This document shows, piece after piece, positions 5,234 through 30,423 of a stretch of DNA of 64,000 nt. The DNA comes from Candidatus Thiodiazotropha sp. GTDB lineage: Bacteria > Pseudomonadota > Gammaproteobacteria > Chromatiales > Chromatiaceae. The stretch spans positions 226 to 64,225 of the forward strand of contig JBFNJI010000046.1 of NCBI GenBank assembly GCA_040793985.1, given 5' to 3'. Position numbers and translations under genes: made by a program. The notes under the pieces were generated by a model. That model did not search any database. It saw only the letters and a list, made by a program, of their open reading frames with translations, and was not told where the DNA came from. How positions within the stretch are numbered: position 1 is the first letter of the stretch; each line of letters begins with the position of its first letter.

Positions 5234-5504
5234 CTAGGGCCTGTTAACACGAATCCAATGCGCCCTGTCGCGTCTGAAAAAGCGCCAATCAAGGCGCGAG
5301 GAGCATAGTTTGGTTGTTCCAAATAAGCGACGAGCAACGCCGAATGGCGCTTTTTCAGGTGCAACCCGGAGGGCTGGGGCTGTTTTTTCACCCAGCGGCG
5401 TTATCGTTCGCTCATGTAGAATAACTACACTACGCTCATTCTGCCTTGCTGGGCACAAAAACAGTCCAAGCAGGGCGCATAGGATTCGTGTTAACAGGTC
5501 CTAG
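5234..5504. mobile_element. Non-autonomous MITE-like element (271 bp including CTAG at each end)
   Basis: Terminal inverted repeats CTAGGGCCTGTTAACACGAATCCAATGCGCCCTG and reverse complement CTAGGACCTGTTAACACGAATCCTATGCGCCCTG (2 mismatches in 34 bp); no transposase; internal palindromes. Confidence 0.85.
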
Positions 5505-15908: not shown

Positions 15909-17063
15909 ATGGGTTTTAAATTGAAGGTGAAGATTGTAGTTGCCGCTTGTGTCCTCTCTGTGGCAGGCAGCGGTCTGCAGGCACAGCCTGGTATGACCGG
16001 CGGCGACCACTATGTGGTGCAGCAGACCCAAGGTGTAACACACGTCTCTCTTGGCGGTACCGTGGTGCCCTACAAGGAAGTGACCCTCTCAGCGCAACTA
16101 CCTGGCCGTGTCAATTTCCTGGCCGGTATCGAAGGCGATACATTCAAGGAGGGGGATCGCCTTGTCGAGTTGGATGACAGCGAGTTGATGGCCAAGCGGG
16201 AGGCGGCGATGGCACAACTGGCGAATGCCGACGCCCAGTTGCGCAATGCCGGTGTACAGTACAGCCGTGAATTGTGGTCGCCAAAGTCGAAATCCTCCAT
16301 GGGCGGCATGGGCATGCCTAATCTCTTTGACCAGATGTTCACGCGACCGATGGAGGATGTCTTCGGAGAGCGGGATCAGGGGGCTGAACGGCGCGCGGAC
16401 ATCTTCTCCTCGCAAACCAATATTCAACAGGCGAGGAATACCATCTATCGGGTTCAGGCCGAGATTCGGGCCATCGATGCCAAGTTGCGCGATGCCAAAA
16501 GTCTTGCTCCCTTTGATGGCGTAATCATGAAGAAATTCGTCGAAGTCGGTGATACGGTGCAGCCGGGACAGCCGCTGTTGAAATATGCCGACGTGGAGTA
16601 TCTGCAGATCGTGGTGGATGTTCCCGGACGCCTGCGTCCCGGTCTCAACGAAGGTATGATACTGCGGGCAGAACTCGATGTGGGAGATCAGGAAGTACCG
16701 GTTCGAGTTGCCCAGATATTCCCCATGGCAGATGCCCAAAGGCACACCGTGACAATCAAGTTCGATCTGCCTCAAGGGGTATCCGCTCCGGGCATGTATG
16801 CCAAGGTCCTGGTGCCTGACTACAATGCGCCGACCCGCTCCAATCCGGTGATTCCAAACAGTGCCATTCGCTACAACGGAAGCCTGCCAGGGGTCTATGT
16901 CATTGGCGAGGATGGCGAACCGATGCTCAGACTGATTCGCGTCGGTGAGAAGCTTCCGGGTGACTACGTCAGTGTGCTGTCAGGCCTGCAGGCGGGTGAA
17001 CGGGTACTGCGCAATCCGCCACTTGGCATCAGCGCCGGCTGGACCTCCTCGCAAGGCCGTTAG
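15909..17063 (+). CDS. RND efflux periplasmic adaptor (membrane fusion protein)
   Basis: Lipoyl half-motifs LSAQLPGRV..GDTFKEGDRLVELD and APFDGVI..VEVGDTVQPGQPLL; signal peptide. Confidence 0.92.
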   Translation: MGFKLKVKIVVAACVLSVAGSGLQAQPGMTGGDHYVVQQTQGVTHVSLGGTVVPYKEVTLSAQLPGRVNFLAGIEGDTFKEGDRLVELDDSELMAKREAAMAQLANADAQLRNAGVQYSRELWSPKSKSSMGGMGMPNLFDQMFTRPMEDVFGERDQGAERRADIFSSQTNIQQARNTIYRVQAEIRAIDAKLRDAKSLAPFDGVIMKKFVEVGDTVQPGQPLLKYADVEYLQIVVDVPGRLRPGLNEGMILRAELDVGDQEVPVRVAQIFPMADAQRHTVTIKFDLPQGVSAPGMYAKVLVPDYNAPTRSNPVIPNSAIRYNGSLPGVYVIGEDGEPMLRLIRVGEKLPGDYVSVLSGLQAGERVLRNPPLGISAGWTSSQGR

Positions 17064-17194
17064 TTGCGAAAGCGGAGGCATACAGGGAACCCCAAGATTT
17101 TTTCACGGAAGAAAAAAGCACTCTCTACAATTAAGTAAAAATGGGTCAGGGTCTGTGACAGGGTCTGCCTGAGATCAATGCATCGAGATTAACT

Positions 17195-20100
17195 ATGAGC
17201 CAGAACGACGAGAAACTCGATCAGCTCCACTCCACCGATCCCCACTATGAGGCGCATCTTGGTATCGCGGGGAGGACCGCTCGGTTCTTTATCCAGTCGC
17301 CGCTCTCGCCGCTCTTCTTCCTGGCCATGATGTTGATGGGGCTGTTGGGTCTGATCATAACGCCGCGTCAAGAGGACCCTCAGATCTCGGTACCGATGGT
17401 CGATATCTTCGTTCAATATCCGGGTGCCGCGGCGGATCAGGTGGCTGCATTGGCGATCGAGCCCCTGGAGCGCATCATGTCGGAGATTCCCGATGTGAAA
17501 CATGTCTACTCCGCCGCCCAACGCGGGGGCGGGGCGGTTACCATCGAGTTCGAGGTGGGGGAGGAGATGGGACCTTCCCTGGTCAAGGTTAACGACAAGA
17601 TCGATTCCAATATGGATCTGATCCCCCCCGGGGTGATGCCGCCGCTGGTGAAGGCCAAAGGTATCGATGATGTGCCGGTGGTGACCCTGACCCTCTGGTC
17701 GAAAGACCTGGATCGGGACGGAGCGCCCGATGTGGATGATGGCCAACTGCGAATGCTCGGCCACGATGTGCTGCAGGCCCTTAAGGAACTGCCCGACACA
17801 GGGAATGGTTTCGTGGTCGGTGGCAGAAGGGAGCAGGTTACCATCGAGGTATTCCCGGAACGGCTGGCGGGTTACGGGATAAGCCTTGATCATGTGGCAG
17901 ACACCATCCGCAAATCCAATGCTGAACAGCAGGCCGGTGGTGTGGAGGCGGGAAGCACCTACTCAAACGTGGTGACCGGTGCCTTCCTTAAGACCACTGA
18001 GGATATCAATCGCCTGGTGGTGGGTTCTCACAACGGGGTCGATGTCTATGTACACGACATCGCGCGGGTGAAACAGGGACCGGAGGATGCCAAGCAGCTG
18101 GTGGGTTACTACACGGGTGCCGCCAGCGATCTTGAGATAAAGGCGGACGGCGTGCCGGCGATCACCCTGGCAATAGCCAAGAAAGAGGGCTCCAACGGGG
18201 TTACCGTGGCCAATGCCATCAAGGATCGGGTTGAGCATATCAAGGGATCGCTGATCCCGGATAACGTGGAGGTCAGCGTCACCCGCAACTACGGCAAGAC
18301 AGCGGATGACAAGGTCAGCGAACTGATCTTCAAACTGTTTGTCGCCACCGGGTTCGTGTTTCTCCTGGTATTGGCGGCATTCCGCGCCTTCAGACCGGCG
18401 ATCGTGGTGGTGCTGGTGATCCCAGTGGTATTGCTGATGACCATCTTCAGCGCCTGGGTCATGGGTTACACCATCGACCGGGTCAGTCTTTTCGCGCTGA
18501 TCTTCTCCATCGGAATCCTGGTGGATGATGCCATCGTGGTGGTGGAGAATATCTATCGTCGCTGGTTGGAGGAGAAGTCCACCGATGTGGTCACTGCGGT
18601 TGACGCGGTGAGAGAGGTGGGTAATCCCACCATCCTGGCTACCTTTACCGTCATCGCTGCACTGCTGCCAATGGGATTCGTCAGTGGCATGATGGGTCCC
18701 TACATGGAACCGATCCCGGCACTGGGTTCGGTGGCGATGCTGATCTCCCTTTTCGCCGCATTTGTCTTTACCCCCTACCTCACGGTTTCTCACTGGTTGC
18801 GCCCCAGTATGCGCTATCTGGAGGTGGCCGGGGAGCGGGAGCACAAGGAGGCGGAGTGGCTGGAGCGCCTGTTCAAGCGCATCCTGATTCCGATGATCGA
18901 GTCACCCCGCAAGGCAAGACTTTTCAAACTGGTCATGTGGGGCACCTTCCTCGTCACCTGCTCCTTCTTCTACTTCAAATGGGTGGCGGTGAAGATGCTG
19001 CCCCTGGATAACAAGCCGGAATATTCGGTGGTGGTGGATATGCCGGAGGGGACGGCACTGCCGGTGACCGCCAACCTGGCGCATCGCATGGCGGAGAAGA
19101 TCCGCGTATTACCGGAGGTCACCGCGGTACAGGTCTATGCCGGAACCGCCCGGCCATTCGATTTCAACGGCATGGTCCGCCACTACTACCTGCGTTCCGA
19201 TCCCTGGCAGGCGGAAGTGCAGGTGCAGCTGCTGGATAAGACCGACCGTGATCGCACCAGTCACGAAATAGCGGTACAGACCCGGGAAATGTTGAGTGAT
19301 CTCATCAAGGGCACCGGCGCCAGAATATCGGTGGTTGAGATGCCTCCGGGGCCTCCGGTACTGCAATCTGTGGTTGCCGAAGTGCACGGGCCGAGTCCGG
19401 AGGTCAGGCGTCGGGTGGCGCAGGATCTGACCGACATATTCGAGCAGACTGAGAGCCTGCGCGACGTCGATAACTACATGCGCGATCCTTATCAATACTG
19501 GCGCTTCAACGTGGATACGGAAAAAGCGGTGCGGCGGGGAATCTCTGTCGATACCATCAATCGCAACCTTGGCATGGCCCTGGGCGGGGCCCTGGGCGAT
19601 GTCAAGCAGCGCGCCGGTCATGAACCGATCAATATAGTGATGCAGGTGCCGCTGGCCGAGCGATCGGAAATCACCCGCCTTGGCGACCTGCCGATCCAGT
19701 CGAGCAGCGGCATCACCGTACCTCTGCGCGAGCTCGGCCGATTCGAACAGGTATTCGAAGATCCGATCATCTATCACAAGGATCTGCGTGATGTGGAGTA
19801 CGTGGTAGCCGAGGTGGGCGGCAAACTTGCGGCGCCGGTCTACGGCATGCTGCAGGTGCAGGATATTCTGGCTGAGAGCGATTACAAGGCGCCGGATGGG
19901 GTCGCAATCTCTCCGAACTGGCTGGGTCCCCCGAAAAACGACTCCAATACCGGTATTGAATGGGCCGGCGAATGGACTGTGACCTTTGAGACCTTCCGCG
20001 ATATGGGGGCTGCATTTGCGGTGGCCCTGGTACTGATCTATATCCTGGTGGTCTGGGAGTTTGGCAACTTCCGCATTCCGGCACTGATCATGGCGCCCAT

Positions 20101-21325
20101 TCCACTGACACTGCTGGGCATAATTCCGGCCCATTTCCTCTTTTTCCAGGCCGGCTGGGGCGGCGAGTTCACTGCAACTTCGATGATCGGCTGGATCGCC
20201 CTGGCGGGCATCATCGTACGTAACTCGATTCTGCTGGTCGATTTCTCCATACATCAGGTACAGCAGGGCACCTCCGTGGTTGACTCCGTCATCATGGCCT
20301 GTAAGACCCGTACCCGCCCCATCATGATCACCGCTTTTGCCCTGGTGTGCGGTTCCTCAGTGATCTTTTTCGATCCGATTTTTCAGGGCATGGCCATATC
20401 CCTGGCATCCGGTGTACTCGTTTCCACCGTGCTTACCCTGATCGTGATACCCCTTGGATGTATAGCCGCGAGCAAGGATATCATCGAGGTGGCGGAAGCG
20501 ACCGCACCGGCCGGTAGCAGCTTGGCGGAGGATGGCAGGGGGCTCCCGGCAGCGGGGGAGGGGGCGATGGCCGCCGCATCAGGTGCCGCATCTGCATCCG
20601 AGGCTGCACCTAAGCGCACATCCTTACCCATGCTGGTCTGGGGTAGGGTGATTGCCGTTATCACCACACTCTTCTATCTGGTCAGAGGGGTTTTCCTGCT
20701 CTTATGGCAGATGTTAAGCGGGCTCTTTAGAAGAAAATCCCGGCAGCCTAATGTTACAAAGGCTGAGCTGACAGATAGCGGTTCAGGCGGCGGCACAGGC
20801 AGCGGTGGCGGAATGTCGGGGCCACAGAGTGGATCTCCACCGGCCTCAGATGAGGATGATGTCTCGGTAGCTGCGGCACCGAAAAGCCAGGAGGCTCCCC
20901 CTGTGGCAGCTGCAAAAGAGAGACCTGAAGCGTCTCCAAAGAAGGCGAATTCAACTCCCCCTTCAATGCCCGTGTCGGATCGGGCAACTGACAACCCGGG
21001 CGACCAGACCGATACACAAAAGCAAACCGCCAAATCCAAGCCGAAAAAGGCGGCAGTCGAGGCAAAACAGGCCAAAGCCGCAGAGAAGAGCAAGCCTGAA
21101 ACCGCAACTGCTCCCAAGAAACCGGCCGCAGCGAAACAGAAGAAACGTCCTTCAACGCTAAAGAAAAAGGTCGCGAAAAAGAAGGCTGCATCTGCCAAGC
21201 GCAAAGGTAATGGAGCACCTGAATCCACGCCTGCGAAGCCAGATCCGGCCCAAAAGCAGGCCTCCAATGTGACAGAATTTCCGATCCGCAGAAAGGTTGC
21301 GAGGAGGGGGATTAGACTCAAATAG
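17195..21325 (+). CDS. RND permease (AcrB/HAE1-like) with about 285-aa C-terminal extension
   Basis: PRQEDPQI, IGILVDDAIVVVENI, GIIVRNSILLVDF and RTRPIMITA motifs; Ala/Lys/Pro-rich tail. Confidence 0.95.
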   Translation: MSQNDEKLDQLHSTDPHYEAHLGIAGRTARFFIQSPLSPLFFLAMMLMGLLGLIITPRQEDPQISVPMVDIFVQYPGAAADQVAALAIEPLERIMSEIPDVKHVYSAAQRGGGAVTIEFEVGEEMGPSLVKVNDKIDSNMDLIPPGVMPPLVKAKGIDDVPVVTLTLWSKDLDRDGAPDVDDGQLRMLGHDVLQALKELPDTGNGFVVGGRREQVTIEVFPERLAGYGISLDHVADTIRKSNAEQQAGGVEAGSTYSNVVTGAFLKTTEDINRLVVGSHNGVDVYVHDIARVKQGPEDAKQLVGYYTGAASDLEIKADGVPAITLAIAKKEGSNGVTVANAIKDRVEHIKGSLIPDNVEVSVTRNYGKTADDKVSELIFKLFVATGFVFLLVLAAFRAFRPAIVVVLVIPVVLLMTIFSAWVMGYTIDRVSLFALIFSIGILVDDAIVVVENIYRRWLEEKSTDVVTAVDAVREVGNPTILATFTVIAALLPMGFVSGMMGPYMEPIPALGSVAMLISLFAAFVFTPYLTVSHWLRPSMRYLEVAGEREHKEAEWLERLFKRILIPMIESPRKARLFKLVMWGTFLVTCSFFYFKWVAVKMLPLDNKPEYSVVVDMPEGTALPVTANLAHRMAEKIRVLPEVTAVQVYAGTARPFDFNGMVRHYYLRSDPWQAEVQVQLLDKTDRDRTSHEIAVQTREMLSDLIKGTGARISVVEMPPGPPVLQSVVAEVHGPSPEVRRRVAQDLTDIFEQTESLRDVDNYMRDPYQYWRFNVDTEKAVRRGISVDTINRNLGMALGGALGDVKQRAGHEPINIVMQVPLAERSEITRLGDLPIQSSSGITVPLRELGRFEQVFEDPIIYHKDLRDVEYVVAEVGGKLAAPVYGMLQVQDILAESDYKAPDGVAISPNWLGPPKNDSNTGIEWAGEWTVTFETFRDMGAAFAVALVLIYILVVWEFGNFRIPALIMAPIPLTLLGIIPAHFLFFQAGWGGEFTATSMIGWIALAGIIVRNSILLVDFSIHQVQQGTSVVDSVIMACKTRTRPIMITAFALVCGSSVIFFDPIFQGMAISLASGVLVSTVLTLIVIPLGCIAASKDIIEVAEATAPAGSSLAEDGRGLPAAGEGAMAAASGAASASEAAPKRTSLPMLVWGRVIAVITTLFYLVRGVFLLLWQMLSGLFRRKSRQPNVTKAELTDSGSGGGTGSGGGMSGPQSGSPPASDEDDVSVAAAPKSQEAPPVAAAKERPEASPKKANSTPPSMPVSDRATDNPGDQTDTQKQTAKSKPKKAAVEAKQAKAAEKSKPETATAPKKPAAAKQKKRPSTLKKKVAKKKAASAKRKGNGAPESTPAKPDPAQKQASNVTEFPIRRKVARRGIRLK

Positions 21326-21429
21326 CATAAGCAGGGACTAAATCCCTGTGTTTTGCTGTCGAATACCTTAGCCTAGGCCCGGCATGGTTCCGATGGTCTA
21401 TACTCGTCTTGGTAATCTGGAGTGGTAGT

Positions 21430-22038
21430 TTGCGTATCGATGCAGCGCTATGGTTGGTCTTGATCGCCTGTCTGGTGGGGCTGGGTGAGCTCCTGGCAGG
21501 CCAGCCCTATGCCGATTTTCAGTTCCTCGAGCAATCCCAACAGAGGCCTGTTTATGGGGAAGACCGCTATCGTTGGCGTCCTTTGAACGAGGAACAGCAA
21601 GGGGAGTCGTCCACCAATCTGGTTCCCAATGTGATCGATAACGGGCGCTCCAATCGCCCACCGCCAATCATCGATTATGCCGAATCGCCCCCCGGTCTGC
21701 CTCGCGGTGTCTATCGGCCGGTCGAAAAGCGACACAACATCACTCCGCACATGGACGGGTATCGCTTTCGCACCCTAAGCCCGAGTGAGCAGCAACGCAT
21801 CAAACGACGGAATGAAGAGTACAGCCGTGCCTGGCAGCCGAACAGAAAGGAAACCAGCCAACAGTTATCATCCGAGCCCTATTACGGTTTCAAAACCGAT
21901 AGCCAGCAGGGTTACAGATTTCGCCCGGACAAGCGTTTGGAGAAACGGCAAGGTCGGAACTGGGGAGAGCCGGGCTCTTTTCCCAACGATCCGGCATTTA
22001 CCGAAGCCTATCCGGCTCAAATGTTCCGTCCGGATTAG
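21430..22038 (+). CDS. Secreted low-complexity protein with aromatic-R-x-R-P repeats
   Basis: Signal-peptide-like N-terminus; YRWRPL, VYRPV, YRFRTL, YRFRPD and MFRPD; start uncertain (TTG 21409 or TTG 21430). Confidence 0.75.
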   Translation: MRIDAALWLVLIACLVGLGELLAGQPYADFQFLEQSQQRPVYGEDRYRWRPLNEEQQGESSTNLVPNVIDNGRSNRPPPIIDYAESPPGLPRGVYRPVEKRHNITPHMDGYRFRTLSPSEQQRIKRRNEEYSRAWQPNRKETSQQLSSEPYYGFKTDSQQGYRFRPDKRLEKRQGRNWGEPGSFPNDPAFTEAYPAQMFRPD

Positions 22039-22296
22039 GTGTTGGCAAAGAACAACAGCCGTAAACCAGCGACCGATTCCGTTCGACACTACTGAAAAAC
22101 ATACACTAATGGTTTTGTAGAGGCCTGTTTACAGCTAAACTGTCTCCTAAATTGATAAAGCGTGAGGGATTTGCCAGCATTACGATCTTGGGGCCCTCTG
22201 AGCGCCTGGCGATTGCATCAGCTCTAGCTGCTGCGGTCTCGGGGGCTGTATCTATAAATATCGTTGTTAAACGGATCAACTTAACAGGTAACCCTG

Positions 22297-23511
22297 ATGA
22301 GAAAAAAGAGATTTGTGCTATTGATCCCCGGTATCCTCTTCACAATGCTGATGCCGTCGGCTTCGGCACTGGAGGGCAGTGCGCCAAGTTACAATCAATG
22401 GCGCCCCCTAGCGGATCGGAGCATGGCAGCGGAGTGGGCAGGGCGCCATCAGGGTCCGGTGCAGTCTATGAGTACAGCGCCCTGGAAGGGGGTGCAGCGC
22501 AATCCCAATCTGGATGGGCAGGCTTACCGCTTCAGGTCCTGGGGGGATGGAAAGACTCAACGCGCCCGTGTATCTATGCATGCAACACCAGGGTCTAACT
22601 ACGCGGCGTATCAGAACCGGCAATCTGTGAAGATAGCCCAAGAGGCCAGGTTTCAGATGCCCAGCTACGGTTACCAACAGCCACAACCTGCTGTCTACCC
22701 CAAACACCTCAATTGGCGACCTGTGTCTGCGGCACCTGGCACTGCCCCTGCCGCATATGGTGTTGACAACCGCTATCGCTTCAGACCCATGCAACGTACA
22801 GACAAGAGAACTGCCCCAGCGAGATGGACCTATCGGCCACTGCAGATCGATATACCAAATACCTATGTCTACCGTCCGCTCCGGGTGAACAAGCCAGCGA
22901 ACAGGGTAGATAGACATATACCGGCTCCACCGACCATGCCGCAGGTGTCGGGATACGGCTCCGGTAACAAGGATCCATACGCCTACGGTTTTGGTTACCT
23001 CGGTGCGCCTGCCCAGAGCTTGCCGTCGTCCGACTATCAACCACGCCAGCAGCCAGTCAACTATCACAACTACCGGTCGGCGGGTTCAGTTGCCGGGCAC
23101 CCGGGTTTCAATACCCATGCTTGGGGCTATCGGTTCCCACGAGACCGCTACTCACCTCGATATGCGATAAATATGCCGTTTAACAGTTACAGGTTCCGTC
23201 CACTGCGTCGACCGGGAGGGGAAAGATACCGTCATCGAGGCCCGCAGCCACCGCGTTATGCCATTAATCCTCCAGTTTATCCATCGACATTTTCACCATT
23301 GCCACCAACTCACGTCTATGCCTATCGGAGTTGGATGCCTCCCCTGGGATACCCCCATCCCGGAATGGAACAGGCATTGCGGCAGCCTGTCGCAACCAAT
23401 CGATTTGGAACCAACTGGTATGATGGTGAGGCAGATGGTGAAGGGGCATGGTATAAGCTGGCAGGAGAGCTGGAGTGGCCAAGGGTTTCGCACTTTTCAC
23501 CCGTGGAGTGA
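22297..23511 (+). CDS. Secreted Tyr/Arg/Pro/Gly-rich protein with about 10 YRFRP-like repeats
   Basis: Signal peptide MRKKRFVLLIPGILFTMLMPSASA; QWRPL, YRFRSW, NWRPV, YRFRPM, TYRPL, VYRPL, YRFPR, YRFRPL, YRHRGP. Confidence 0.82.
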   Translation: MRKKRFVLLIPGILFTMLMPSASALEGSAPSYNQWRPLADRSMAAEWAGRHQGPVQSMSTAPWKGVQRNPNLDGQAYRFRSWGDGKTQRARVSMHATPGSNYAAYQNRQSVKIAQEARFQMPSYGYQQPQPAVYPKHLNWRPVSAAPGTAPAAYGVDNRYRFRPMQRTDKRTAPARWTYRPLQIDIPNTYVYRPLRVNKPANRVDRHIPAPPTMPQVSGYGSGNKDPYAYGFGYLGAPAQSLPSSDYQPRQQPVNYHNYRSAGSVAGHPGFNTHAWGYRFPRDRYSPRYAINMPFNSYRFRPLRRPGGERYRHRGPQPPRYAINPPVYPSTFSPLPPTHVYAYRSWMPPLGYPHPGMEQALRQPVATNRFGTNWYDGEADGEGAWYKLAGELEWPRVSHFSPVE

Positions 23512-23604
23512 GGGGATGCAGAGAAGCTAACGAATATACAGGTGCTCACATATTCCCGGATGAAAGAGCGCCAGCTTCACCAAAAACATAATAAAGGGGA
23601 GTGT

Positions 23605-24240
23605 ATGATCACAGTAATCGGTAGTCTCAAAGGAGGATCGGGAAAAAGCACGGTGACCTTTAATCTTGCTGTCTGGTTGGAGATGGCGGAGGCGGAAGTA
23701 CTGGTCATAGATGCCGATCCTCAGGCGACGTTAAGCGATGTCTCAGAAGTGCGTGCAGAGGAAGGGTATGAGCCCTTGCTCAATATCAAAGACGCATCAG
23801 CGCTGTCGAGAAAGAAGCTCAGGGGTTATGATGAGGTTTTGATAGATGTTGGGACATCCGATATCGATGCGATGAAGTTGGCATTGGCACTGGCTGACCG
23901 GGTTGTGATACCGGTTCCGCCGTCTCAGGCCGATATCTGGTCGACTCAGCGTTTCATCAGCTTTCTCGATGATGCCGTGGATGGCGAACGTCCGGAGCTG
24001 CTGACTTTCATCAACCGGGCCGATACCCACCATGCGATCAGGGAGTCCGATGAGGCTGCTGCTGCACTGGTATCCTTGCCCGATGTCGATTTTATAAAGT
24101 ACCGTCTTTGCCAAAGGACGGTTTTTCGCAGGTCTTTCAGCGAGGGTCTGGCCGTCTATGAACTGGATCCGAGAGGAAAAGGCAGCAAAGAATTTTATGC
24201 ACTTACAGCTGCGCTGTATCCCAACTACATCAGTCAATGA
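23605..24240 (+). CDS. Short orphan ParA/MinD-family ATPase
   Basis: Deviant Walker A KGGSGKST, IDADPQA, LIDVG and VIPVPPS; no HTH and no adjacent parB; AGGGGAG RBS. Confidence 0.9.
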   Translation: MITVIGSLKGGSGKSTVTFNLAVWLEMAEAEVLVIDADPQATLSDVSEVRAEEGYEPLLNIKDASALSRKKLRGYDEVLIDVGTSDIDAMKLALALADRVVIPVPPSQADIWSTQRFISFLDDAVDGERPELLTFINRADTHHAIRESDEAAAALVSLPDVDFIKYRLCQRTVFRRSFSEGLAVYELDPRGKGSKEFYALTAALYPNYISQ

Positions 24241-24303
24241 GCGGGGGTTAGCTGCTGGGTTGTTTATGGGATATTCAATATCGAGTTTTCCTTGGAGAGA
24301 GAG

Positions 24304-24882
24304 ATGGGGATGATAAAAAATCTGTTAGCCTTGATTGGGTTGTTGGTTGTCTTAGCTGCGGCGGCTGTCTATGTAAAGTATGGCGATGTCTTGAAAGGCT
24401 GGGATCCTGGTGCGGGTGATACCTTCATGGAGTTTTCGCAGTTGCTGGCATCGACAAAGAATGCCGCCGAAGCGAGTGTCTGGAAAATACCCGTTGCGGA
24501 GGATCTCTCATGGGAGGATGTGGAAGAGACCATGAAATTTGTCGCCAACGAGCACAACATGGCCAATGTGGGCGAGCTGCCGTTGTACAAGGACATCGAG
24601 TCGAAATTGGGTACGGAGTATAGGTTTGTAAAGATCTATCTCTTCTGCGACTCACTGATCGCGGCCAAGATGCTCGACTACTCCGACGCCTATTCCGCCT
24701 ATCTGCCCTGTAGAATCACCCTGCTCGAGGATCATCAGGGCAAGCTCTGGTTAATGGCGCTGAATATGGACATGATGATATACGGCGGCAAGCCGCTTCC
24801 ACCCGAGCTCAAGGAACAGGCCCTGAAAGTTAAGGAATATATCCTCGATATAATGAATCGGGGTGCTAGCGGTGAGTTCTGA
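24304..24882 (+). CDS. DUF302 domain protein with N-terminal membrane anchor
   Basis: IYLFCD...YSAYLPCRITL motif of DUF302; hydrophobic N-terminus. Confidence 0.82.
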   Translation: MGMIKNLLALIGLLVVLAAAAVYVKYGDVLKGWDPGAGDTFMEFSQLLASTKNAAEASVWKIPVAEDLSWEDVEETMKFVANEHNMANVGELPLYKDIESKLGTEYRFVKIYLFCDSLIAAKMLDYSDAYSAYLPCRITLLEDHQGKLWLMALNMDMMIYGGKPLPPELKEQALKVKEYILDIMNRGASGEF

Positions 24883-24950
24883 GAACCTGTCCTGAGCCGG
24901 TATCGGGATGGCTCGGAGATGATTTGTTAACTTGTTGTAATTGTTATAAT

Positions 24951-24977
24951 AAAACCGGGCAATAGCCCGGTTTTTTT
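24951..24977 (+). terminator. Rho-independent terminator after the DUF302 gene
   Basis: AAAACCGGGC-AATA-GCCCGGTTTTTTT. Confidence 0.85.
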
Positions 24978-25106
24978 CGTGCCGGAGACAGGTCGCCGCC
25001 TGTGGTTTGTCTATAAGTATATTAGTAGATTTTGATTGTGATAAGCGGCTGCTATGCTACTATTTCATATGACCAAAATTAGAGAATTAGTATTAGGTCT
25101 TGCAAC

Positions 25107-25628
25107 ATGGTAGAAAAAAACGACCAGGATACTCAGAACGAACCGGCAGATGCGGGAGTTTCTGAGACCGATATCAGAAGTAGCCAGGACTCAATGGATC
25201 GCCTCTCAATGGCGTTCGAGACGAGTGCACGGCGTTGGGAGCTTATCGTCTATCCATCACTTTTTGCCTTCATCCTGTTGGCAGCCTATGGTTTCTATCT
25301 AATCTTCAGTCTGGCCAAGGATATCCATTTTCTCGCCTTGAGCGTCGATTCCAACATGAACGTGATGTCCAGCAACCTGATGACCATGACCGATAGTGTC
25401 AGCCAACTCTCCGCCAATGTGCGTACCATGGCCGTGAGTGTGGATTCGATGGCCCAGGATGTGAGAACCCTGCAACCCATGCTCACCAGTATGGATTCCA
25501 TGGAGGAGTCGATGAAGACCATGACTCACGCCACCTATAACATGCAGCGGGACATGCATTCGATGAATTACAATATCCATGATGTCTCGCGCCCTATGAC
25601 CTTCTGGAACTCATTTATGCCCTGGTGA
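25107..25628 (+). CDS. Single-pass membrane protein with Met-rich heptad coiled coil (paralogue of 8804..9370)
   Basis: SARRWELIVYP-TM-GFYLIF, Met-rich heptads, C-terminal RPMTFWNSFMPW. Confidence 0.85.
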   Translation: MVEKNDQDTQNEPADAGVSETDIRSSQDSMDRLSMAFETSARRWELIVYPSLFAFILLAAYGFYLIFSLAKDIHFLALSVDSNMNVMSSNLMTMTDSVSQLSANVRTMAVSVDSMAQDVRTLQPMLTSMDSMEESMKTMTHATYNMQRDMHSMNYNIHDVSRPMTFWNSFMPW

Positions 25629-25971: not shown

Positions 25972-28900
25972 GTGGTGGGTCTGGTGACTGAAATATCTCC
26001 TCAAATTGTCCAAATCTTTCTGTTGCTCATTGCTGTTCTCTCCCTCGGCATCGCCGCTTACAGTTGGTTTAAAGCAAAAGGCCTGAGATTTAGCGAGGAT
26101 CAGAGTCAGAAGTATCGAAATCTGTTTGATCAGGCTGGCGATGGCATAATCGTTCACGATGCCGACGGTAAAATCCTCGATGTAAATCATGCGATTTGCG
26201 ACCTGTTCGGCTATAGCATGGATGAGTTTTGCCAACTTACAGTTCCCCAGCTACACCCTTCGGATATTGCTGTTGTCGAAAAAAGCCGTGAAGCCTTCGC
26301 ATTGGTTGCACGTGACGGTCAAGTCAGATTTGAAAACGATTTCATTACCAGGGACGGAGAGATTTTGATCGGGGATGTAACCGCAAAGGTCATCCACGAT
26401 AGCGGCGGTAAATACATCCATGCCGTGTTTCGCAATGTTACAGTTCAGAAGCAGATGGAGGCTGCGCTGAAAAAACAGAATCAGCAATATCTTTCCCTGC
26501 TCGAGAATGTCAACGTCATTAGTTGGGAACTCGACCTCTCCAACACAAATTTTATCTACGTATCACCCAACGCGGAGCGCATTCTCGGATATCCGATGAA
26601 GGATTGGGTGAACATGGATTCATGGGTCTCCATGGTGCTGGTTGAGGATCGGGAATTTGCCAGAAAATATTGCACGGCTGAGGCGCTTGCCGGCCGGGAT
26701 CATACGTTTGAATATCGTATGCAGAAACAAAATGGCGAGATTATCTGGATATTGGAGGTAGTCCGGGTGATAAAGGATCAGACGGATAATCCTGTTAGGT
26801 TGGCTGGATTTATGTTTGATAACACCGATCAACATGAACTGACGGCAAAACTGGACGAGAGCCGCAGGGCTTATCGGAATGCACAAGAGATCGCGCAATT
26901 GGGATATTGGCAAATGGATATCAAGACCGGGAAAATCACCTGGTCAGATGATATTTTCCGGATGCTGGGAATGGCTCCCGAAACGGAGCTGGGGGTGGAA
27001 TTTCTTGCCAATATCGTACATCCCGATGATTGGCCAAAAGTTGAGTCATCACTAAAAACAGCCATCCGTGAAGGTACTGTGCACGAGATGGAGTACCGTG
27101 TCAGCTGTCCAGGCAGACACAATGAAATATTGTGGGTCTATTCCAAGGCGGAGCGATTGCGGGATTCCAGCGGTCAAGCAAAAAGCCTGTCTGGGATTGT
27201 GCAGGATATTACCGAACGCAAGCAGAACGAGTTGGCTCTGCGGGAAAGCGAATCATTCTTGAACGACATCTTCGACGCCATTCAGAATGGTATCAGCATC
27301 CTGGATACGGATTTCAATATTGTCAAAACAAACCGCTGGCTTGACGAGTATTATACGGACAAAAAACCCCTTATAGGTAAAAAGTGTTATCACGTCTATC
27401 AAGACAGCGATGCAGTCTGTGATTTTTGCCCGACCAAGGATGTATTGGAAACCGGTTTGCCAAAAACTGACACCTTAAAGGTACCCCTCGCGGGTGGTGG
27501 AACAGGCTGGGTCGAATTATCCGTATTTCCCGTTAAAAATGAAGCAGGTCGCATCGTTAATGTAATCGAATACATCAAGGATATTACAAAGAGAAAGACT
27601 GCGGAGAGCAGACTGGCACGTTTTCGAAATCTCCTTGAACAATCGAGTGATGTAATACTCATTATCAATGCCGATACTTCCCGCATTGTGGATGCCAATA
27701 TGGCGGCATGTAAAAGTCTGGGTTATGACCTGGATAAGCTGTTAACACTGCATGTCTGGGAGATCGATAGCAATATGGCAGATCAGGAGGCCTGGCATGC
27801 ATGGGTTGATTCCCTCGCAAAGCAGACGGATGTGGTAAGTGAAAGCCGCTATTTGAGAAATAACGGTGATCGATTTCCAGTTGAGGTTAATACCCGGCAT
27901 GTCGAAACCGAAGATGAAGATCTGATTATAGCCATTGCGCGAGATCTGAGTGACATTGTTAGAATTCATGATCAGCTTGTTGAGAGTGAGAGCAAACTGC
28001 GAACCATACTCGATAATGTCGATGCCTTTATTTACCTCAAGGATCTGGATGGCAAATATCTTTTTGCCAACAAGGCGGTACGTGATCTATGGCATGCCGA
28101 TATGGACGATATCCTTGGTTATGGCGATGAAAAGTTTTTTGATGAAGCCAGTTCACAGGCAATAAGGATCAATGACAGCAAGGTGTTGAATGAGGGCATG
28201 ATCCTGCGCGCCCATGAAACCAATACTGTTCCGCAGACTGGGAAAACCGCAGTATATCAATCGACGAAGCTGCCCCTGAGGCACGAGGATGGAGAGATCT
28301 ATGCACTGTGCGGGATCTCTATGGATGTCACCGAACAGAAAAAAGCGGAAACGGACCTAAAGGAGAGTGAACGGCGTTTCAAGATCGCAGGTCAGGCAGC
28401 ATATGACCTGATCTATGAATGGGATGTGGCCAGTGACGAGTTGAAATGGTACAGCGACATTGACCGGATACTTGGTTATGCAGAGGGTCAAATCTCCCAA
28501 AATATTCGCGCATGGCTGGATCTTATCCATCCAGATGATCTGCAATTCATGCAGGACAGTGTTGAATTACATCGCACCTCATCGAGCGATATCCAGTACG
28601 AATACAGAGTAAGACATGCGGATGGATCCTACCGGTATTGGAGTGACCATGCCTTGCCCATGCTGGATAAGGATAATAAACCGTATCGATGGGTGGGTGT
28701 TTGTGCTGATATAACGCTGCTAAAAGAGCATCAGTTGCAGCTTGAGCATAATGCCAACCACGATCTGTTAACCGGATTGCCGAATCGTGTATTGCTTAGT
28801 GATCGCCTGAAGCAGGCGATGCTCCAGGAAAAACGTTTCAAGCAGAAACTTGCTGTTGTCTATATCGATTTGGACGGATTCAAGCAGATCAATGACCGCT

Positions 28901-30423
28901 ATGGGCATGATGTGGGCGATCAGGTACTGATCGGTATGGCGAATCGGTTCAGTACATCGTTGCGTGAGGGAGATACCATATCCCGCTTTGGCGGTGATGA
29001 GTTTGTTGCCGTATTGAGTGGTGTCGGTGGTAAGGAGTCATGTGTTCCCTTGCTCAAACGCCTGCTGCAGGCGTCAACGCAGCCAATTCAGGAAAGTGGT
29101 GAATATATCCAGTTGAGTGCCAGTCTTGGTATCAGCCTGTACCCACAGGAAGAAGATGTGGATGGCGATCAGTTGTTACGTCAGGCGGATCAGGCGATGT
29201 ACCAGGCCAAGCTGGCAGGGAAGAACCGATACAGTTTTTTTGATACAGAGTATGACCGAACTCTCAGGGGTAAAAAAGAGGACGTACAAAGAATTGAAAA
29301 AGGACTGTTGGCGAGCGAATTCGAGCTTTACTATCAACCAAAGGTTAATATGAGTGATGGTAAGGTTGTGGGTGTAGAGGCGTTGTTGCGTTGGCGGCAT
29401 CCTCAGCAGGGATTGCTGTTGCCCGCACATTTCCTGCCGGTAATCGAAGATCATGCTGTTGCGGTGGATTTGGGTGAGTGGGTGCTGGATAGTGCGCTTT
29501 CCCAGCTTGCAGAGTGGGAAAGTCAAGGTTTGTTTACGGCTGTCAGCGTCAATATAGGTGCGCAGCAGTTGCAAACAACGGACTTTGTGAGGCGGTTGAA
29601 AGAGATCATGCAGCGCTATCCGGAAATTGAGCCTACTCGGTTGCAGCTCGAAATATTGGAAACCAGCGCGCTGAATGACATAAGTCATATCACAAAAATA
29701 ATGCAGGAGTGTCTTGAGTTCGGTGTGAGCTTCGCACTTGATGATTTCGGTACCGGTTACTCATCCTTGTCCTATCTCAAACATTTACCGGCAACCAGTA
29801 TTAAGATAGATCGCTCCTTCGTGCGGGACATGTTGCATGATCCCGATGACCTGGCGATTCTGGAAGGTATCCTAGGTATGGCAACAGCATTCCGGCGAAA
29901 TATCATTGCCGAGGGAGTCGAGTCGGCTGAGCATGGAGAGCTGTTGCTTAAACTCGGTTGCAAGTATGCGCAGGGTTATGGAATTGCAAAGCCGATGCCG
30001 CCGCATGAGTTTCCTGAGTGGCTGAGCAAATGGTCGCCCTTTGAGAGTTGGCAACATCAACGTCGGGTTAGTCGCGATGATCTGTCTTTGTTGTTTGCCG
30101 GTATTGAACACCGCGCATGGGTGAATGGTGTTGAAGGATCAATCCTCAACAAGGTAAGTAACTTTCCTGTTCTCGACCATACCAAGTGCCGGTTTGCCGC
30201 CTGGCTCAGTGGCGATGGGTATACAAACTATAGTCATTTGGATGCCTACCAGGAAATTGTAATGCTGCATGAGCATATACATGTTTTTGTTAAAACCCTG
30301 GCTCACAAGTGTCGGCAGGGAGAGTACGAACAAGCGGCTGACGGGCTTCCTGAGTTACGCAGACAGGCGCAGTTTCTTTTGAGCTTGTTAGATGGCTTGG
30401 TCGGTTCAGCAAGCCAGCAATGA
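25972..30423 (+). CDS. Multi-PAS GGDEF-EAL protein with C-terminal CZB domain
   Basis: About 7 PAS/PAC repeats; HDLLTGLPNR, intact GGDEF, VEALLRW, DDFGTGYSSLSYL; C-terminal HTKCRFAAW...HEHIH. Confidence 0.93.
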   Translation: MVGLVTEISPQIVQIFLLLIAVLSLGIAAYSWFKAKGLRFSEDQSQKYRNLFDQAGDGIIVHDADGKILDVNHAICDLFGYSMDEFCQLTVPQLHPSDIAVVEKSREAFALVARDGQVRFENDFITRDGEILIGDVTAKVIHDSGGKYIHAVFRNVTVQKQMEAALKKQNQQYLSLLENVNVISWELDLSNTNFIYVSPNAERILGYPMKDWVNMDSWVSMVLVEDREFARKYCTAEALAGRDHTFEYRMQKQNGEIIWILEVVRVIKDQTDNPVRLAGFMFDNTDQHELTAKLDESRRAYRNAQEIAQLGYWQMDIKTGKITWSDDIFRMLGMAPETELGVEFLANIVHPDDWPKVESSLKTAIREGTVHEMEYRVSCPGRHNEILWVYSKAERLRDSSGQAKSLSGIVQDITERKQNELALRESESFLNDIFDAIQNGISILDTDFNIVKTNRWLDEYYTDKKPLIGKKCYHVYQDSDAVCDFCPTKDVLETGLPKTDTLKVPLAGGGTGWVELSVFPVKNEAGRIVNVIEYIKDITKRKTAESRLARFRNLLEQSSDVILIINADTSRIVDANMAACKSLGYDLDKLLTLHVWEIDSNMADQEAWHAWVDSLAKQTDVVSESRYLRNNGDRFPVEVNTRHVETEDEDLIIAIARDLSDIVRIHDQLVESESKLRTILDNVDAFIYLKDLDGKYLFANKAVRDLWHADMDDILGYGDEKFFDEASSQAIRINDSKVLNEGMILRAHETNTVPQTGKTAVYQSTKLPLRHEDGEIYALCGISMDVTEQKKAETDLKESERRFKIAGQAAYDLIYEWDVASDELKWYSDIDRILGYAEGQISQNIRAWLDLIHPDDLQFMQDSVELHRTSSSDIQYEYRVRHADGSYRYWSDHALPMLDKDNKPYRWVGVCADITLLKEHQLQLEHNANHDLLTGLPNRVLLSDRLKQAMLQEKRFKQKLAVVYIDLDGFKQINDRYGHDVGDQVLIGMANRFSTSLREGDTISRFGGDEFVAVLSGVGGKESCVPLLKRLLQASTQPIQESGEYIQLSASLGISLYPQEEDVDGDQLLRQADQAMYQAKLAGKNRYSFFDTEYDRTLRGKKEDVQRIEKGLLASEFELYYQPKVNMSDGKVVGVEALLRWRHPQQGLLLPAHFLPVIEDHAVAVDLGEWVLDSALSQLAEWESQGLFTAVSVNIGAQQLQTTDFVRRLKEIMQRYPEIEPTRLQLEILETSALNDISHITKIMQECLEFGVSFALDDFGTGYSSLSYLKHLPATSIKIDRSFVRDMLHDPDDLAILEGILGMATAFRRNIIAEGVESAEHGELLLKLGCKYAQGYGIAKPMPPHEFPEWLSKWSPFESWQHQRRVSRDDLSLLFAGIEHRAWVNGVEGSILNKVSNFPVLDHTKCRFAAWLSGDGYTNYSHLDAYQEIVMLHEHIHVFVKTLAHKCRQGEYEQAADGLPELRRQAQFLLSLLDGLVGSASQQ

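What the first reader, a model, noticed from the sequence alone, without database searches (positions are those of the whole stretch)
21430..23511. Two tandem secreted proteins built on a shared aromatic-Arg-x-Arg-Pro repeat
Seen: both have signal peptides, no recognisable folded domain, and repeated motifs such as YRWRPL, YRFRTL and YRFRPD (first protein) and QWRPL, YRFRSW, NWRPV, YRFRPM, TYRPL, VYRPL, YRFRPL and YRHRGP (second), set in Pro/Gly/Gln/Tyr-rich spacers. The second ends in a distinct NWYDGEADGEGAWY block. Inference: regularly spaced Tyr/Trp plus Arg stickers are typical of self-assembling or phase-separating proteins. This is compositionally reminiscent of sulfur globule proteins, but with a motif I do not recognise from SgpA/B/C. 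They may be a new coat or scaffold family.
Basis: partly seen in the sequence, partly recalled or inferred. Interest (0 to 1): 0.72.

Follow-up and report, generated by a model that had tools for sequence, protein, structure and literature searches.

The report
Secreted disordered YRFRP-motif proteins, sulfur-bacteria cluster
Two neighbouring genes of a clam-gill sulfur-oxidising symbiont encode exported, unstructured, arginine/tyrosine/proline-rich proteins of no described family, in a gene-cluster slot where a few related bacteria carry a true sulfur-globule coat protein, so they are candidate but unproven sulfur-globule proteins.

Summary
P1 (21430..22038) and P2 (22297..23511) are real genes of a Ca. 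Thiodiazotropha genome. dN/dS is 0.15-0.43, synteny is conserved across the genus, and orthologues appear in gill metatranscriptome assemblies.

Both proteins have Sec-type signal peptides and no Pfam, NCBIfam or PDB match. AlphaFold2 models them as disordered. They share a collinear set of [YW]R[FW]RP motifs (hhalign probability 90.5%). These are the only two ORFs in the 4.6-Mb genome with two strict copies of the motif.

Both genes sit in a cluster conserved across Chromatiales: dynamin-like GTPase, SCP2, MFP, tailed RND pump, [slot], ParA, DUF302, Met-rich membrane protein.
- P1 belongs to an undescribed "YRFRG...YRFRPLT" family. About 65 of 80 named loci carry it in this slot (Allochromatium, Thiocapsa, Sedimenticola and others).
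- P2 is confined to Thiodiazotropha and two sister genera.
- In four MAG loci the same slot holds a true sulfur globule protein (PF17228).

So the sulfur-globule coat or scaffold idea has positional and taxonomic support, but no direct evidence. Four canonical SGP genes lie elsewhere in this genome. A sulfur-unrelated role as a pump accessory remains a serious rival.

The parts
21430..22038 (+). P1: 202-aa exported disordered protein (mature about 21 kDa, pI 9.3). Member of a Chromatiales-wide undescribed 'YRFRG...YRFRPLTxxExxR' family.
   Evidence: ORF and translation. The same 202-aa product is on record. Orthologues keep synteny. dN/dS 0.15-0.30. An HMM built from 58 non-Thiodiazotropha slot proteins ranks this ORF first of the genome's six-frame ORFs, E 4.6e-4.
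21430..21501 (+). P1 Sec-type signal peptide, MRIDAALWLVLIACLVGLGELLAG. The cut site is inferred.
   Evidence: Read from the sequence. A hydrophobic N-terminus is conserved in 20 orthologues. AlphaFold2 models helix 3-23. The 'LIAC' lipobox-like string is not conserved, so a lipoprotein reading is rejected.
21568..21585 (+). P1 motif 1, YRWRPL (aa 47-52).
   Evidence: R48 W49 R50 P51 L52 are invariant in 20 orthologues.
21673..21813 (+). P1 conserved core, DYAESPPGLPRGVYRPVEKRHNITPHMDGYRFRTLSPSEQQRIKRRN. It holds the family signature GYRFRxLxPxEQxR and a short basic helix.
   Evidence: A dense run of invariant columns from D82 to N128. Helix 118-134 has block-mean pLDDT 66-79. The same signature is seen in Allochromatium, Thiocapsa, Marichromatium and Chromatium.
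21913..21930 (+). P1 motif 3, YRFRPD (aa 162-167).
   Evidence: F164 R165 P166 D167 are invariant.
22094..22154 (+). Conserved element in the P1-P2 spacer. It includes the inverted repeat GTTTAC-N3-TAAAC and a promoter-like TAAACT. Probably P2's own promoter or operator.
   Evidence: Runs of invariant columns across six species whose P2 proteins are only 31-57% identical to this one. No Rfam family matches. A sigma-54 reading is rejected because the -12 GC is not conserved.
22297..23511 (+). P2: 404-aa exported, fully disordered protein (mature about 43 kDa, pI 10.2; Pro 13%, Arg 10.5%, Tyr 8%, no Cys).
   Evidence: AlphaFold2 mean pLDDT 42.9. Found in 28 of 31 genomes of the genus, with one faint hit outside it. 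50 clusters among 1.84 billion representatives. dN/dS 0.33-0.43.
22297..22368 (+). P2 Sec-type signal peptide, MRKKRFVLLIPGILFTMLMPSASA. The cut site is inferred.
   Evidence: Read from the sequence; conserved in alignments A1 and A2. There is no twin-arginine motif.
22399..22542 (+). P2 N-terminal motifs QWRPL (aa 34-38) and YRFRSW (aa 77-82). They are collinear with P1 motifs 1 and 2.
   Evidence: hhalign of A1 against A4, probability 90.5%. Alignment A1.
22774..22881 (+). P2 conserved core: YRFRPM (aa 160-165) followed by RWTYRPLQIDIPNTYVYRPL (aa 176-195).
   Evidence: Invariant columns F162 R163 Y179 R180 P181 I186 P187 Y190-P194. R193 and P194 are still invariant, and most of the rest near-invariant, in the 26 distant members of A2.
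23188..23244 (+). P2 motifs YRFRPL (aa 298-303) and YRHRGP (aa 311-316).
   Evidence: R299 R301 P302 are invariant.
23413..23490 (+). P2 C-terminal module NWYDGEADGEGAWYKLAGELEWPRVS. It is the most conserved part of the family and occurs nowhere else in this genome.
   Evidence: W374-G377, D380, G381, G383-Y386, W394, P395 and V397 are invariant. The module is kept in distant members. It is the only genome ORF matching WYDG..D..G.WY. It is absent from the Sedimenticola-type proteins in the same slot.
21331..21359 (+). Terminator-like hairpin just after the RND stop codon. It suggests that P1 is transcribed on its own.
   Evidence: Consensus scan only. It fits the higher contig depth over the P1 orthologue than over the RND gene in two RNA runs.
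15909..21325 (+). Context: MFP (15909..17063) and RND permease (17195..21325). The RND carries a roughly 290-aa Lys/Ala/Pro-rich tail ending RRGIRLK. No outer-membrane factor gene lies nearby.
   Evidence: Pfam and NCBIfam hits. Synteny holds across the genus and the family. Tails ending RRGIRLK are seen in other genera.
23542..25628 (+). Context: orphan ParA-type ATPase (23542..24240), DUF302 protein (24292..24882) and Met-rich membrane protein (25107..25628).
   Evidence: ParA is conserved in 67 of 83 genera of the family. Synteny.

Best explanation
P1 and P2 are Sec-exported, intrinsically disordered, basic Arg/aromatic/Pro-rich periplasmic proteins. They fill the variable 'exported low-complexity protein' slot of a gene cluster conserved in sulfur-oxidising Chromatiales. 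The cluster holds a dynamin-like GTPase, SCP2, MFP, a tailed RND pump without an outer-membrane factor, the slot, an orphan ParA, DUF302 and a Met-rich membrane protein.

I read them as structural scaffold or matrix proteins of a periplasmic deposit, most likely the sulfur globule. In this reading they act beside the canonical SGP coat proteins rather than replacing them.

Proposed mechanism (inferred, not shown):
- The few invariant [YW]R[FW]RP(L) motifs are short linear docking sites, presented several times on a flexible chain.
- They bind a conserved folded periplasm-facing partner of the cluster. The candidates are the MFP or RND porter domains, DUF302, or the Met-rich stalk.
- DUF4412 cannot be the obligate partner, because Thiodiazotropha lacks it.
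- The Arg/Tyr-rich spacers would add cation-pi self-association.
- P2's unique WYDG...DGEGAWY...WPRVS module would be a separate anchoring or binding end.

Shown: the genes are real and under purifying selection; export signals; disorder; motif sharing; cluster membership; SGP in the same slot elsewhere.

Inferred: periplasmic location, partner binding, self-association, and any link to sulfur.
For: Real, constrained genes:
- dN/dS is 0.15-0.43 against 0.03-0.12 for the neighbouring genes.
- Synteny holds in 7 of 7 species of the genus examined.
- Orthologues lie in contigs of six gill RNA runs.

Export and disorder.

Motifs beyond chance. P1 and the N-terminal half of P2 are collinear.

The cluster is kept across the family:
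- ParA was found in 67 of 83 genera.
- RND and ParA flank a variable gap in all 10 loci from other genera examined, and other cluster genes are seen where the fetched stretch reaches.
- That gap always holds exported low-complexity proteins with YRFRP-type motifs.

Named organisms carrying the cluster are all Chromatiales that store sulfur: Allochromatium, Thiocapsa, Chromatium, Marichromatium, Thiorhodococcus, Thiosymbion, Sedimenticola. About 65 of 80 loci have a P1-like protein in the slot.

In four MAG loci with the same RND-[slot]-DUF4412-ParA-DUF302-dynamin order, the slot gene is a sulfur globule protein. Three of the four were scanned and pass Pfam's own PF17228 threshold (73.2, 39.3 and 27.8 bits against a cut-off of 26.7).

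Published precedent:
- All known Sgp proteins are Sec-exported and repetitive.
- sgpD lies next to a hydrophobe/amphiphile exporter gene (PMC10386293).
Against: - There is no direct evidence of location or function.
- The restriction to sulfur-storing bacteria is one clade, so it may only reflect shared ancestry.
- The genome has four canonical SGP genes elsewhere, and SGPs are among the most highly expressed symbiont genes (PMC11171427). P1 and P2 orthologues show only moderate contig depth, and contig depth is a poor measure.
- P1 and P2 are strongly hydrophilic (GRAVY -1.5 and -1.0) and basic, whereas SgpA-C are described as extremely hydrophobic.
- P2 is confined to about three genera, so it cannot be a general globule component.
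- Homology of P1 to the Chromatiaceae slot proteins rests on short motifs (best E 4.6e-4).
Confidence: 0.4

Rival explanations
1. P1 and P2 are periplasmic accessory or adaptor proteins of the tailed RND-MFP exporter, with no link to sulfur globules. The cluster would move a hydrophobic envelope component, such as a lipid or pigment. The route would run from an SCP2 carrier through the pump to a LolA-like DUF4412 carrier. P1 and P2 would dock on the pump through their YRFRP motifs and stand in for the missing outer-membrane factor or guide the cargo.
For: - They lie immediately downstream of the MFP and RND genes in every genome examined.
- No TolC-type gene lies in the cluster.
- In other genera the slot also holds a DUF4412/LolA-like protein.
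- Conserved short motifs in drifting sequence are typical of docking on a folded partner.
- A third exported protein with YRFRPLD and KFRPLD motifs lies beside TolC-like and HlyD-like ORFs elsewhere in the genome. Those two were judged by eye only.
Against: - A terminator-like hairpin follows the RND gene.
- Depth differs between the P1 orthologue and the RND gene in two RNA runs, which suggests separate regulation.
- This reading does not explain why true SGP genes fill the same slot in four loci.
- No known RND system uses such proteins.
Confidence: 0.3
2. They are generic envelope or surface proteins, for example a periplasm-spanning spacer, a peptidoglycan or outer-membrane binding protein, or an adhesive. 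They would evolve fast under host or phage pressure, and their place in the cluster would be incidental.
For: - They evolve 3-8 times faster at non-synonymous sites than their neighbours.
- P2 is limited to symbiont-rich genera.
- Their basic Tyr/Arg/Pro-rich make-up resembles adhesive and wall proteins (the comparison itself is from general knowledge).
Against: - The slot and the motif persist across free-living and symbiotic Chromatiales over large distances, so the linkage is not incidental.
- dN/dS stays well below 1, with no sign of diversifying selection at whole-gene level.
Confidence: 0.15
3. P2 is a McdB-like cargo adaptor for the ParA ATPase encoded directly downstream.
For: P2 is adjacent to an orphan ParA, disordered, basic and fast-evolving. 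These are features of McdB proteins, from general knowledge.
Against: - P2 has a conserved Sec signal peptide, so it should be on the other side of the inner membrane.
- ParA is conserved in 67 of 83 genera. In 51 of the 61 named loci where a ParA gene could be placed, it directly follows DUF4412 with no P2-like gene between them.
Confidence: 0.03
4. These are chance low-complexity ORFs or decaying genes.
For: Low complexity, no domain, and overlapping antisense ORFs.
Against: - The frames stay open in 28 of 31 genomes of the genus.
- The two indels reported inside the P1 and P2 orthologues are each 3 bases long.
- dN/dS is below 0.45.
- Motifs are invariant.
- Orthologues are transcribed.
Confidence: 0.02

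Closest known systems
Sulfur globule proteins SgpA/SgpB/SgpC (Pfam SGP, PF17228) of Allochromatium vinosum and other sulfur-storing bacteria
   Same: They are Sec-exported, repetitive, low-complexity and Tyr-rich, and have no enzymatic domain. In four related loci an SGP gene occupies exactly the cluster slot that P1 occupies here.
   Different: - P1 and P2 give no match to PF17228.
- They are Arg/Pro-rich, basic and very hydrophilic, not Gly-rich and hydrophobic.
- P2 is 3-4 times larger.
- Four true SGP genes exist elsewhere in this genome.
SgpD (Alvin_2515) of A. vinosum
   Same: It is a lineage-restricted, Sec-exported globule protein with regularly spaced prolines. It was found late, by proteomics, and is encoded beside a hydrophobe/amphiphile exporter gene (PMC10386293). 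It sets a precedent for non-SGP-family globule proteins.
   Different: SgpD is reported to have two long helices predicted with very high confidence. P2 has none, and P1 has only one 17-residue helix. The sequences could not be compared because SgpD was not on hand.
McdB, the disordered adaptor of McdA (ParA-type) carboxysome positioning
   Same: It is a disordered, basic, fast-evolving protein encoded next to an orphan ParA.
   Different: McdB is cytoplasmic, whereas P2 carries a conserved signal peptide. ParA is kept in many genera that lack P2.
Sticker-and-spacer, cation-pi proteins such as mussel foot proteins and Arg/Tyr-rich phase-separating domains. This is an analogy of mechanism only, from general knowledge.
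   Same: High Tyr/Trp plus Arg content, Pro/Gly/Gln spacers, pI about 10, predicted disorder, and aromatic-Arg adjacency 3-5 SD above shuffles.
   Different: There is no sequence relationship. Here specific motifs are conserved, not merely composition. Even spacing of aromatics is weak. Condensation has not been tested.

Membership tests
SGP (PF17228) sulfur globule proteins | Match to the Pfam SGP model at or above 26.7 bits | tested here: not met
   P1 and P2 hit no Pfam family at E <= 0.01. The controls work: four genome loci pass and three slot proteins from MAG loci pass.
SGP (PF17228) sulfur globule proteins | Sec signal peptide (periplasmic export) | tested here: met
   Conserved n-h-c N-termini with small residues at -1 and -3, read from the alignments. 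No dedicated predictor was available.
SGP (PF17228) sulfur globule proteins | Small (about 10-13 kDa), Gly/Tyr-rich, extremely hydrophobic | tested here: not met
   Mature P1 is 21 kDa with GRAVY -1.50. Mature P2 is 43 kDa with GRAVY -0.98, Arg 10.5%, Pro 13% and Gly 8%. The Sgp properties are taken from PMC10386293.
SGP (PF17228) sulfur globule proteins | Physical presence in the globule envelope | not testable with these tools
   This needs globule proteomics or fusion-protein microscopy.
SgpD-type globule protein | Long helices predicted with very high confidence (coiled-coil-like) behind a Sec signal | tested here: not met
   P2 has no helix beyond the signal peptide and one 4-residue turn. 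P1 has one 17-residue helix with block-mean pLDDT 66-79.
SgpD-type globule protein | Sequence similarity to Alvin_2515 | not tested
Undescribed Chromatiales 'YRFRG...YRFRPLT' slot family (P1-like) | Exported protein encoded directly downstream of the tailed RND gene, carrying the [YF]RFR[GP]... and GY[RHQ]FRPLTxxExxR motifs | tested here: met
   - P1 lies 105 nt downstream of the RND gene and has GYRFRTLSPSEQQR.
- 49 loci carry two motifs and 17 carry one, of 80 named Chromatiales loci.
- An HMM built from 58 non-Thiodiazotropha members ranks P1 first in the genome, E 4.6e-4.
- The match rests on short motifs, so homology as opposed to motif convergence is not fully settled.
McdB-like ParA adaptors | Cytoplasmic protein that contacts ParA | tested here: not met
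   A conserved cleavable-type signal peptide.
Sticker-spacer phase-separating proteins (mechanistic class, not a homologous family) | Disorder with enriched, evenly distributed aromatic and Arg stickers | tested here: inconclusive
   Disorder and enrichment are met. The aromatic patterning z-score is -0.83 for this P2 and -0.8 to -2.4 for six relatives.
Sticker-spacer phase-separating proteins (mechanistic class, not a homologous family) | Demonstrated condensation | not testable with these tools
   This needs purified protein.

The most novel reading that the evidence does not exclude
P1 and P2 are a new class of sulfur-globule matrix proteins. Their YRFRP motifs would tether the growing periplasmic globule to the outer-membrane-factor-less RND-MFP pump. 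The pump's RRGIRLK-tipped cytoplasmic tail would in turn be held by the orphan ParA. The cluster would then be the long-missing genetic toolkit that builds and positions an extracytoplasmic storage organelle, with interchangeable coat proteins (SGP or YRFRP-type) in one slot.
Probability: 0.18. Interest if true: 0.85.

Novelty: new variant of a known kind. Interest (0 to 1): 0.58.

Why it matters
How sulfur bacteria build, coat and place their periplasmic sulfur globules is largely unknown beyond four coat proteins in one model species. It is also unknown how stored sulfur is handed back to the cell.

These two proteins are annotated only as 'hypothetical'. They belong to a cluster kept together across purple sulfur bacteria, Sedimenticola and animal symbionts. 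In a few genomes a true globule protein sits in the same slot.

That gives concrete, testable candidates. The P1-like gene exists in genera with cultured strains (Allochromatium, Thiocapsa, Sedimenticola), and genetics and an mCherry localisation assay are published for A. vinosum. For lucinid symbionts, it names two conserved, transcribed, fast-evolving exported proteins that standard annotation and 'top expressed genes without hypotheticals' tables leave out.

If the sulfur link fails, they still represent an undescribed kind of periplasmic disordered protein tied to an RND pump.

Tried and rejected
Searches that found nothing:
- Pfam and NCBIfam scans of both proteins.
- PDB profile searches.
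- Rfam over the whole window.
- Literature searches for the motif and for the cluster. The three YRFRP hits are all unrelated, and the cluster query returned only irrelevant papers.

Readings considered and rejected:
- P1 as a lipoprotein. The 'LIAC' string is not conserved in orthologues.
- Tat export. There is no twin-arginine motif.
- A sigma-54 promoter in the conserved P1-P2 spacer. The GG-N10-GC spacing fits in this window, but the -12 GC is not conserved.
- P2 as a McdB-like ParA adaptor, because of its signal peptide and because ParA is kept where P2 is absent.

Homology not established: hhalign of Thiodiazotropha P2 against the Sedimenticola-type Pro/Arg/Tyr-rich protein in the same slot gave only 21% probability. 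I claim positional equivalence, not homology.

Other limits:
- No RNA run holds this exact species, so expression rests on orthologues in other species.
- The genome search closed, before a class-wide survey of the RND gene.
- Read laying closed, before canonical sgp genes could be used as an expression yardstick.
- Fold search was not run, because both models are too low in confidence to give meaningful matches.
Full report
**What is there**

The window comes from a Candidatus Thiodiazotropha genome, a sulfur-oxidising gill symbiont of lucinid clams. The source names of the closest proteins say so, and the only public run holding this stretch is a mollusc metagenome.

Two ORFs lie on the + strand, downstream of an MFP/RND pair and upstream of a ParA-type ATPase.
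- P1 is 21430..22038 (TTG start, 202 aa). The same 202-aa product is on record. An alternative in-frame TTG lies at 21409.
- P2 is 22297..23511 (ATG start, 404 aa).

**Are they real genes?** Yes.
- The order dynamin-like, MFP, RND, P1, P2, ParA, DUF302, Met-rich protein is kept in all seven other species of the genus that I fetched.
- A P2 profile finds an open frame in 28 of 31 genomes of the genus.
- Pairwise dN/dS is 0.15-0.30 for P1 and 0.33-0.43 for P2. The seven neighbouring genes give 0.03-0.12. Selection is purifying, but 3-8 times more relaxed.
- Contigs assembled from six gill metatranscriptome runs of two studies cover the orthologous loci. In two runs the P1 orthologue has several-fold higher depth than the RND gene.
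- Contig depth is a poor measure of expression. In two other runs a single 9.4-kb contig spans the locus, so DNA carry-over cannot be excluded there.

**The observation**

Both N-termini have the layout of Sec signal peptides, and this is conserved in orthologues.

Neither protein hits Pfam, NCBIfam or any PDB chain.

AlphaFold2 with family alignments gives these results:
- P2 has mean pLDDT 42.9. No residue reaches 70, and there is no secondary structure beyond the signal helix and one 4-residue turn.
- P1 has mean pLDDT 54.8. It shows only the signal helix and one 17-residue basic helix.

Composition of the mature proteins:
- P2 is 43 kDa, pI 10.2, with Pro 13%, Arg 10.5%, Tyr 8% and no Cys.
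- P1 is 21 kDa, pI 9.3.

- Across all six-frame ORFs of the 4.6-Mb genome, [YFW]R[FWY]RP occurs 35 times in 4.3 M residues. P1 and P2 are the only ORFs with two copies.
- Aromatic-Arg adjacency lies 3.3-5.2 SD above shuffles.
- A profile-profile comparison aligns the N-terminal half of P2 with P1 so that three motifs fall in the same order: WRPL, YRFRP, YRFRP (probability 90.5%, E 1.4e-6). The two are probably paralogous in part.
- The claim of regular spacing is the weak point. The aromatic patterning z-score is -0.83 for this P2 and -0.8 to -2.4 in relatives.

**What is conserved**

In P2, conservation is confined to islands:
- the signal peptide;
- YRFRPW;
- YRFRPM;
- (W)TYRPxQIxIPNHYVYRPL;
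- RFRPL;
- a C-terminal NWYDGxxDGEGAWYKLxxxxxWPRVSQ module, which is the best-kept part and is unique in the genome.

In P1 the islands are YRWRPL, a 47-residue core ending GYRFRxLxPxEQxRIKRRN, YRFRPDKRL and NPAFTEAYxxPxFRP.

Invariant short motifs in otherwise drifting, indel-rich sequence are the usual signature of linear docking motifs in a disordered chain.

**Distribution**

P2 is narrow.
- It has 50 clusters among 1.84 billion representative proteins.
- The order-wide sample gave hits in 2 of 61 genera.
- Recognisable but very divergent copies with the WYDG-type end lie in the RND-ParA slot of two sister genera.

P1 is broad. The whole locus is kept across the family.
- ParA was found in 67 of 83 genera.
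- RND and ParA flank a 1.7-4.8 kb variable gap in all 10 loci from other genera examined.
- That gap always holds an exported low-complexity protein with YRFRG/YRFRPLT-type motifs.
- It often also holds a folded DUF4412/LolA-like protein, which Thiodiazotropha lacks.
- In Sedimenticola-like genera it also holds a 300-350-aa Pro/Arg/Tyr-rich exported protein where P2 sits. Homology of that protein to P2 is not established (hhalign 21%).

I used the DUF4412 protein as a handle in the named genome collection. It returned 80 loci, essentially all Chromatiales:
- Sedimenticola selenatireducens, S. thiotaurini and S. hydrogenitrophicus;
- Allochromatium, Thiocapsa, Marichromatium and Thiorhodococcus;
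- Chromatium okenii, Thiocystis, Lamprocystis and Thiococcus;
- Candidatus Thiosymbion.

One record is titled a Bdellovibrio MAG, which is probably a mis-binned contig.

In 49 loci the ORF directly upstream of DUF4412 has two motifs, and in 17 more it has one. A typical example reads EYRFRGDP...GYRFRPLTEQERER...GWRP.

An HMM built from 58 of these proteins, none from Thiodiazotropha, ranks P1 first among the 33,213 six-frame ORFs of this genome (E 4.6e-4). That is weak in absolute terms, but it is specific. The database names for these proteins are all 'hypothetical protein'.

**The link to sulfur globules**

The genome has four canonical PF17228 genes on other contigs, so P1 and P2 are not the SGP coat.

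Notes from earlier agents of this scan said that true SGP genes sit inside the same kind of cluster in other genomes. I tested this on my own loci.
- jackhmmer seeded with this genome's SGP proteins found four hits among all ORFs of the 97 loci scanned.
- Each of the four is the ORF directly upstream of DUF4412, which is the P1 slot.
- Three of the four loci show the RND gene on one side and ParA (plus DUF302, the Met-rich protein and/or the dynamin-like gene) on the other. The fourth is too short to reach the RND gene.
- Three of the four were scanned, and all pass Pfam's own SGP threshold (73.2, 39.3 and 27.8 bits against 26.7).

So one slot of one conserved cluster holds either an SGP protein or a YRFRP-type protein. 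That is positional support for a related role.

Published work adds two precedents (PMC10386293):
- Every known Sgp is Sec-exported and repetitive.
- sgpD, a non-SGP-family globule protein found only by proteomics, lies beside a hydrophobe/amphiphile exporter gene.

**Why this is not proof**
- All carriers form one clade, so 'enriched in sulfur-storing bacteria' cannot be separated from ancestry.
- P1 and P2 are very hydrophilic and basic, whereas SgpA-C are described as extremely hydrophobic.
- Thiodiazotropha SGPs are among the most abundant transcripts and proteins (PMC11171427). P1 and P2 orthologues look only moderately expressed.
- P2 is too narrowly distributed to be a general component.

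**Mechanism proposed**

I commit to this reading, at about 40%. The two proteins are exported, flexible, multivalent scaffold proteins of the periplasmic deposit served by this cluster, most likely the sulfur globule.

Their YRFRP(L) motifs would dock on a conserved periplasm-facing partner of the cluster. The candidates are the MFP or RND domains, DUF302 or the Met-rich stalk. DUF4412 cannot be required, because it is missing here.

The Arg/Tyr-rich spacers could add cation-pi self-association. P2's WYDG module would be a second, lineage-specific binding end.

The main rival, at about 30%, keeps the docking idea but drops sulfur. In it, P1 and P2 are accessories of a pump that exports some hydrophobic envelope compound along an SCP2, RND and LolA-like route.

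A McdB-like role for P2 is rejected, because of the signal peptide and because ParA persists without P2.

**Regulation**

A terminator-like hairpin follows the RND stop codon. The 259-nt P1-P2 spacer contains a roughly 60-nt block that is nearly invariant across species. It includes GTTTAC-N3-TAAAC and a -10-like TAAACT. This suggests that P2 has its own regulated promoter. No Rfam family matches.

**Novelty and verdict**

Both families are undescribed in the libraries and in the papers I could search.

I file them as a new variant of a known kind: exported low-complexity envelope proteins of sulfur bacteria. They are not members of SGP.

Interest is moderate to fairly high. The interest comes mostly from the cluster and from the fact that the P1-like gene can be tested in cultivable purple sulfur bacteria.

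This prevented a class-wide survey and an sgp expression yardstick.

Noticed in passing
window 20470..21325 (the RND C-terminus); also loci L030-L036: The RND permease has an extra hydrophobic segment and a roughly 290-aa Lys/Ala/Pro-rich tail. The tail's body varies freely between genera, but it always ends ...RRGIRLK.
   Followed up: partly
window 25972..30423: A 1483-aa gene lies between the Met-rich protein gene and the next conserved gene. It looks like a PAS/GGDEF/EAL signalling protein by eye; I ran no family scan on it. No orthologue lies at this position in the seven other Thiodiazotropha species compared, which give only 21-35% partial matches elsewhere. It is therefore a recent insertion next to the cluster.
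   Followed up: no
window 22094..22154: A nearly invariant roughly 60-nt block in the P1-P2 spacer. It includes the inverted repeat GTTTAC-N3-TAAAC and is conserved across species whose P2 proteins are only 31-57% identical to this one. Probably a promoter or operator. It matches no Rfam family.
   Followed up: partly
own genome G000, contig C1, 542631..543287 (- strand): A third exported low-complexity protein (218 aa, Pro/Tyr/Gly-rich) carries YRFRPLD and a C-terminal KFRPLD. It was the second-best genome hit of the P1-like HMM (E 0.35). It lies convergent with ORFs that look TolC-like (447 aa) and HlyD-like (254 aa) by eye only; I ran no family scan on them. This may be a second link between this motif and efflux-type adaptors.
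   Followed up: partly
own genome G000, contig C14, 93047..93690 (loci L023, L026): Two tandem canonical SGP genes. The second encodes a 226-aa protein with an SGP domain (46.8 bits) fused to a long Glu/Ala/Gln/Lys-rich C-terminal region that looks helical.
   Followed up: no
loci L030-L034, L036 and L037-L116, compared with window 22039..22296: A folded exported DUF4412/LolA-like protein (about 260 aa) sits between the P1-like gene and ParA in Sedimenticola and Chromatiaceae. It is missing from the Thiodiazotropha cluster. The whole genome gives only a faint 25%-identity hit on another contig.
   Followed up: yes
window 23542..24240: The orphan ParA-type ATPase is one of the best-conserved genes of the locus. 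It is 57-80% identical across 67 of 83 genera of the family. No ParB-type hit was seen among the neighbouring genes I scanned.
   Followed up: partly
locus L034 (Allochromatium tepidum), between the DUF4412 and ParA genes: A 406-aa ORF that looks like a TnpB/OrfB-type transposon protein is inserted inside the cluster. This was judged by eye only.
   Followed up: no
locus L052: A contig titled 'MAG: Bdellovibrio bacteriovorus' carries the Chromatiales-type cluster, with a P1-like gene at 4868..5668. It is probably a mis-binned contig.
   Followed up: no
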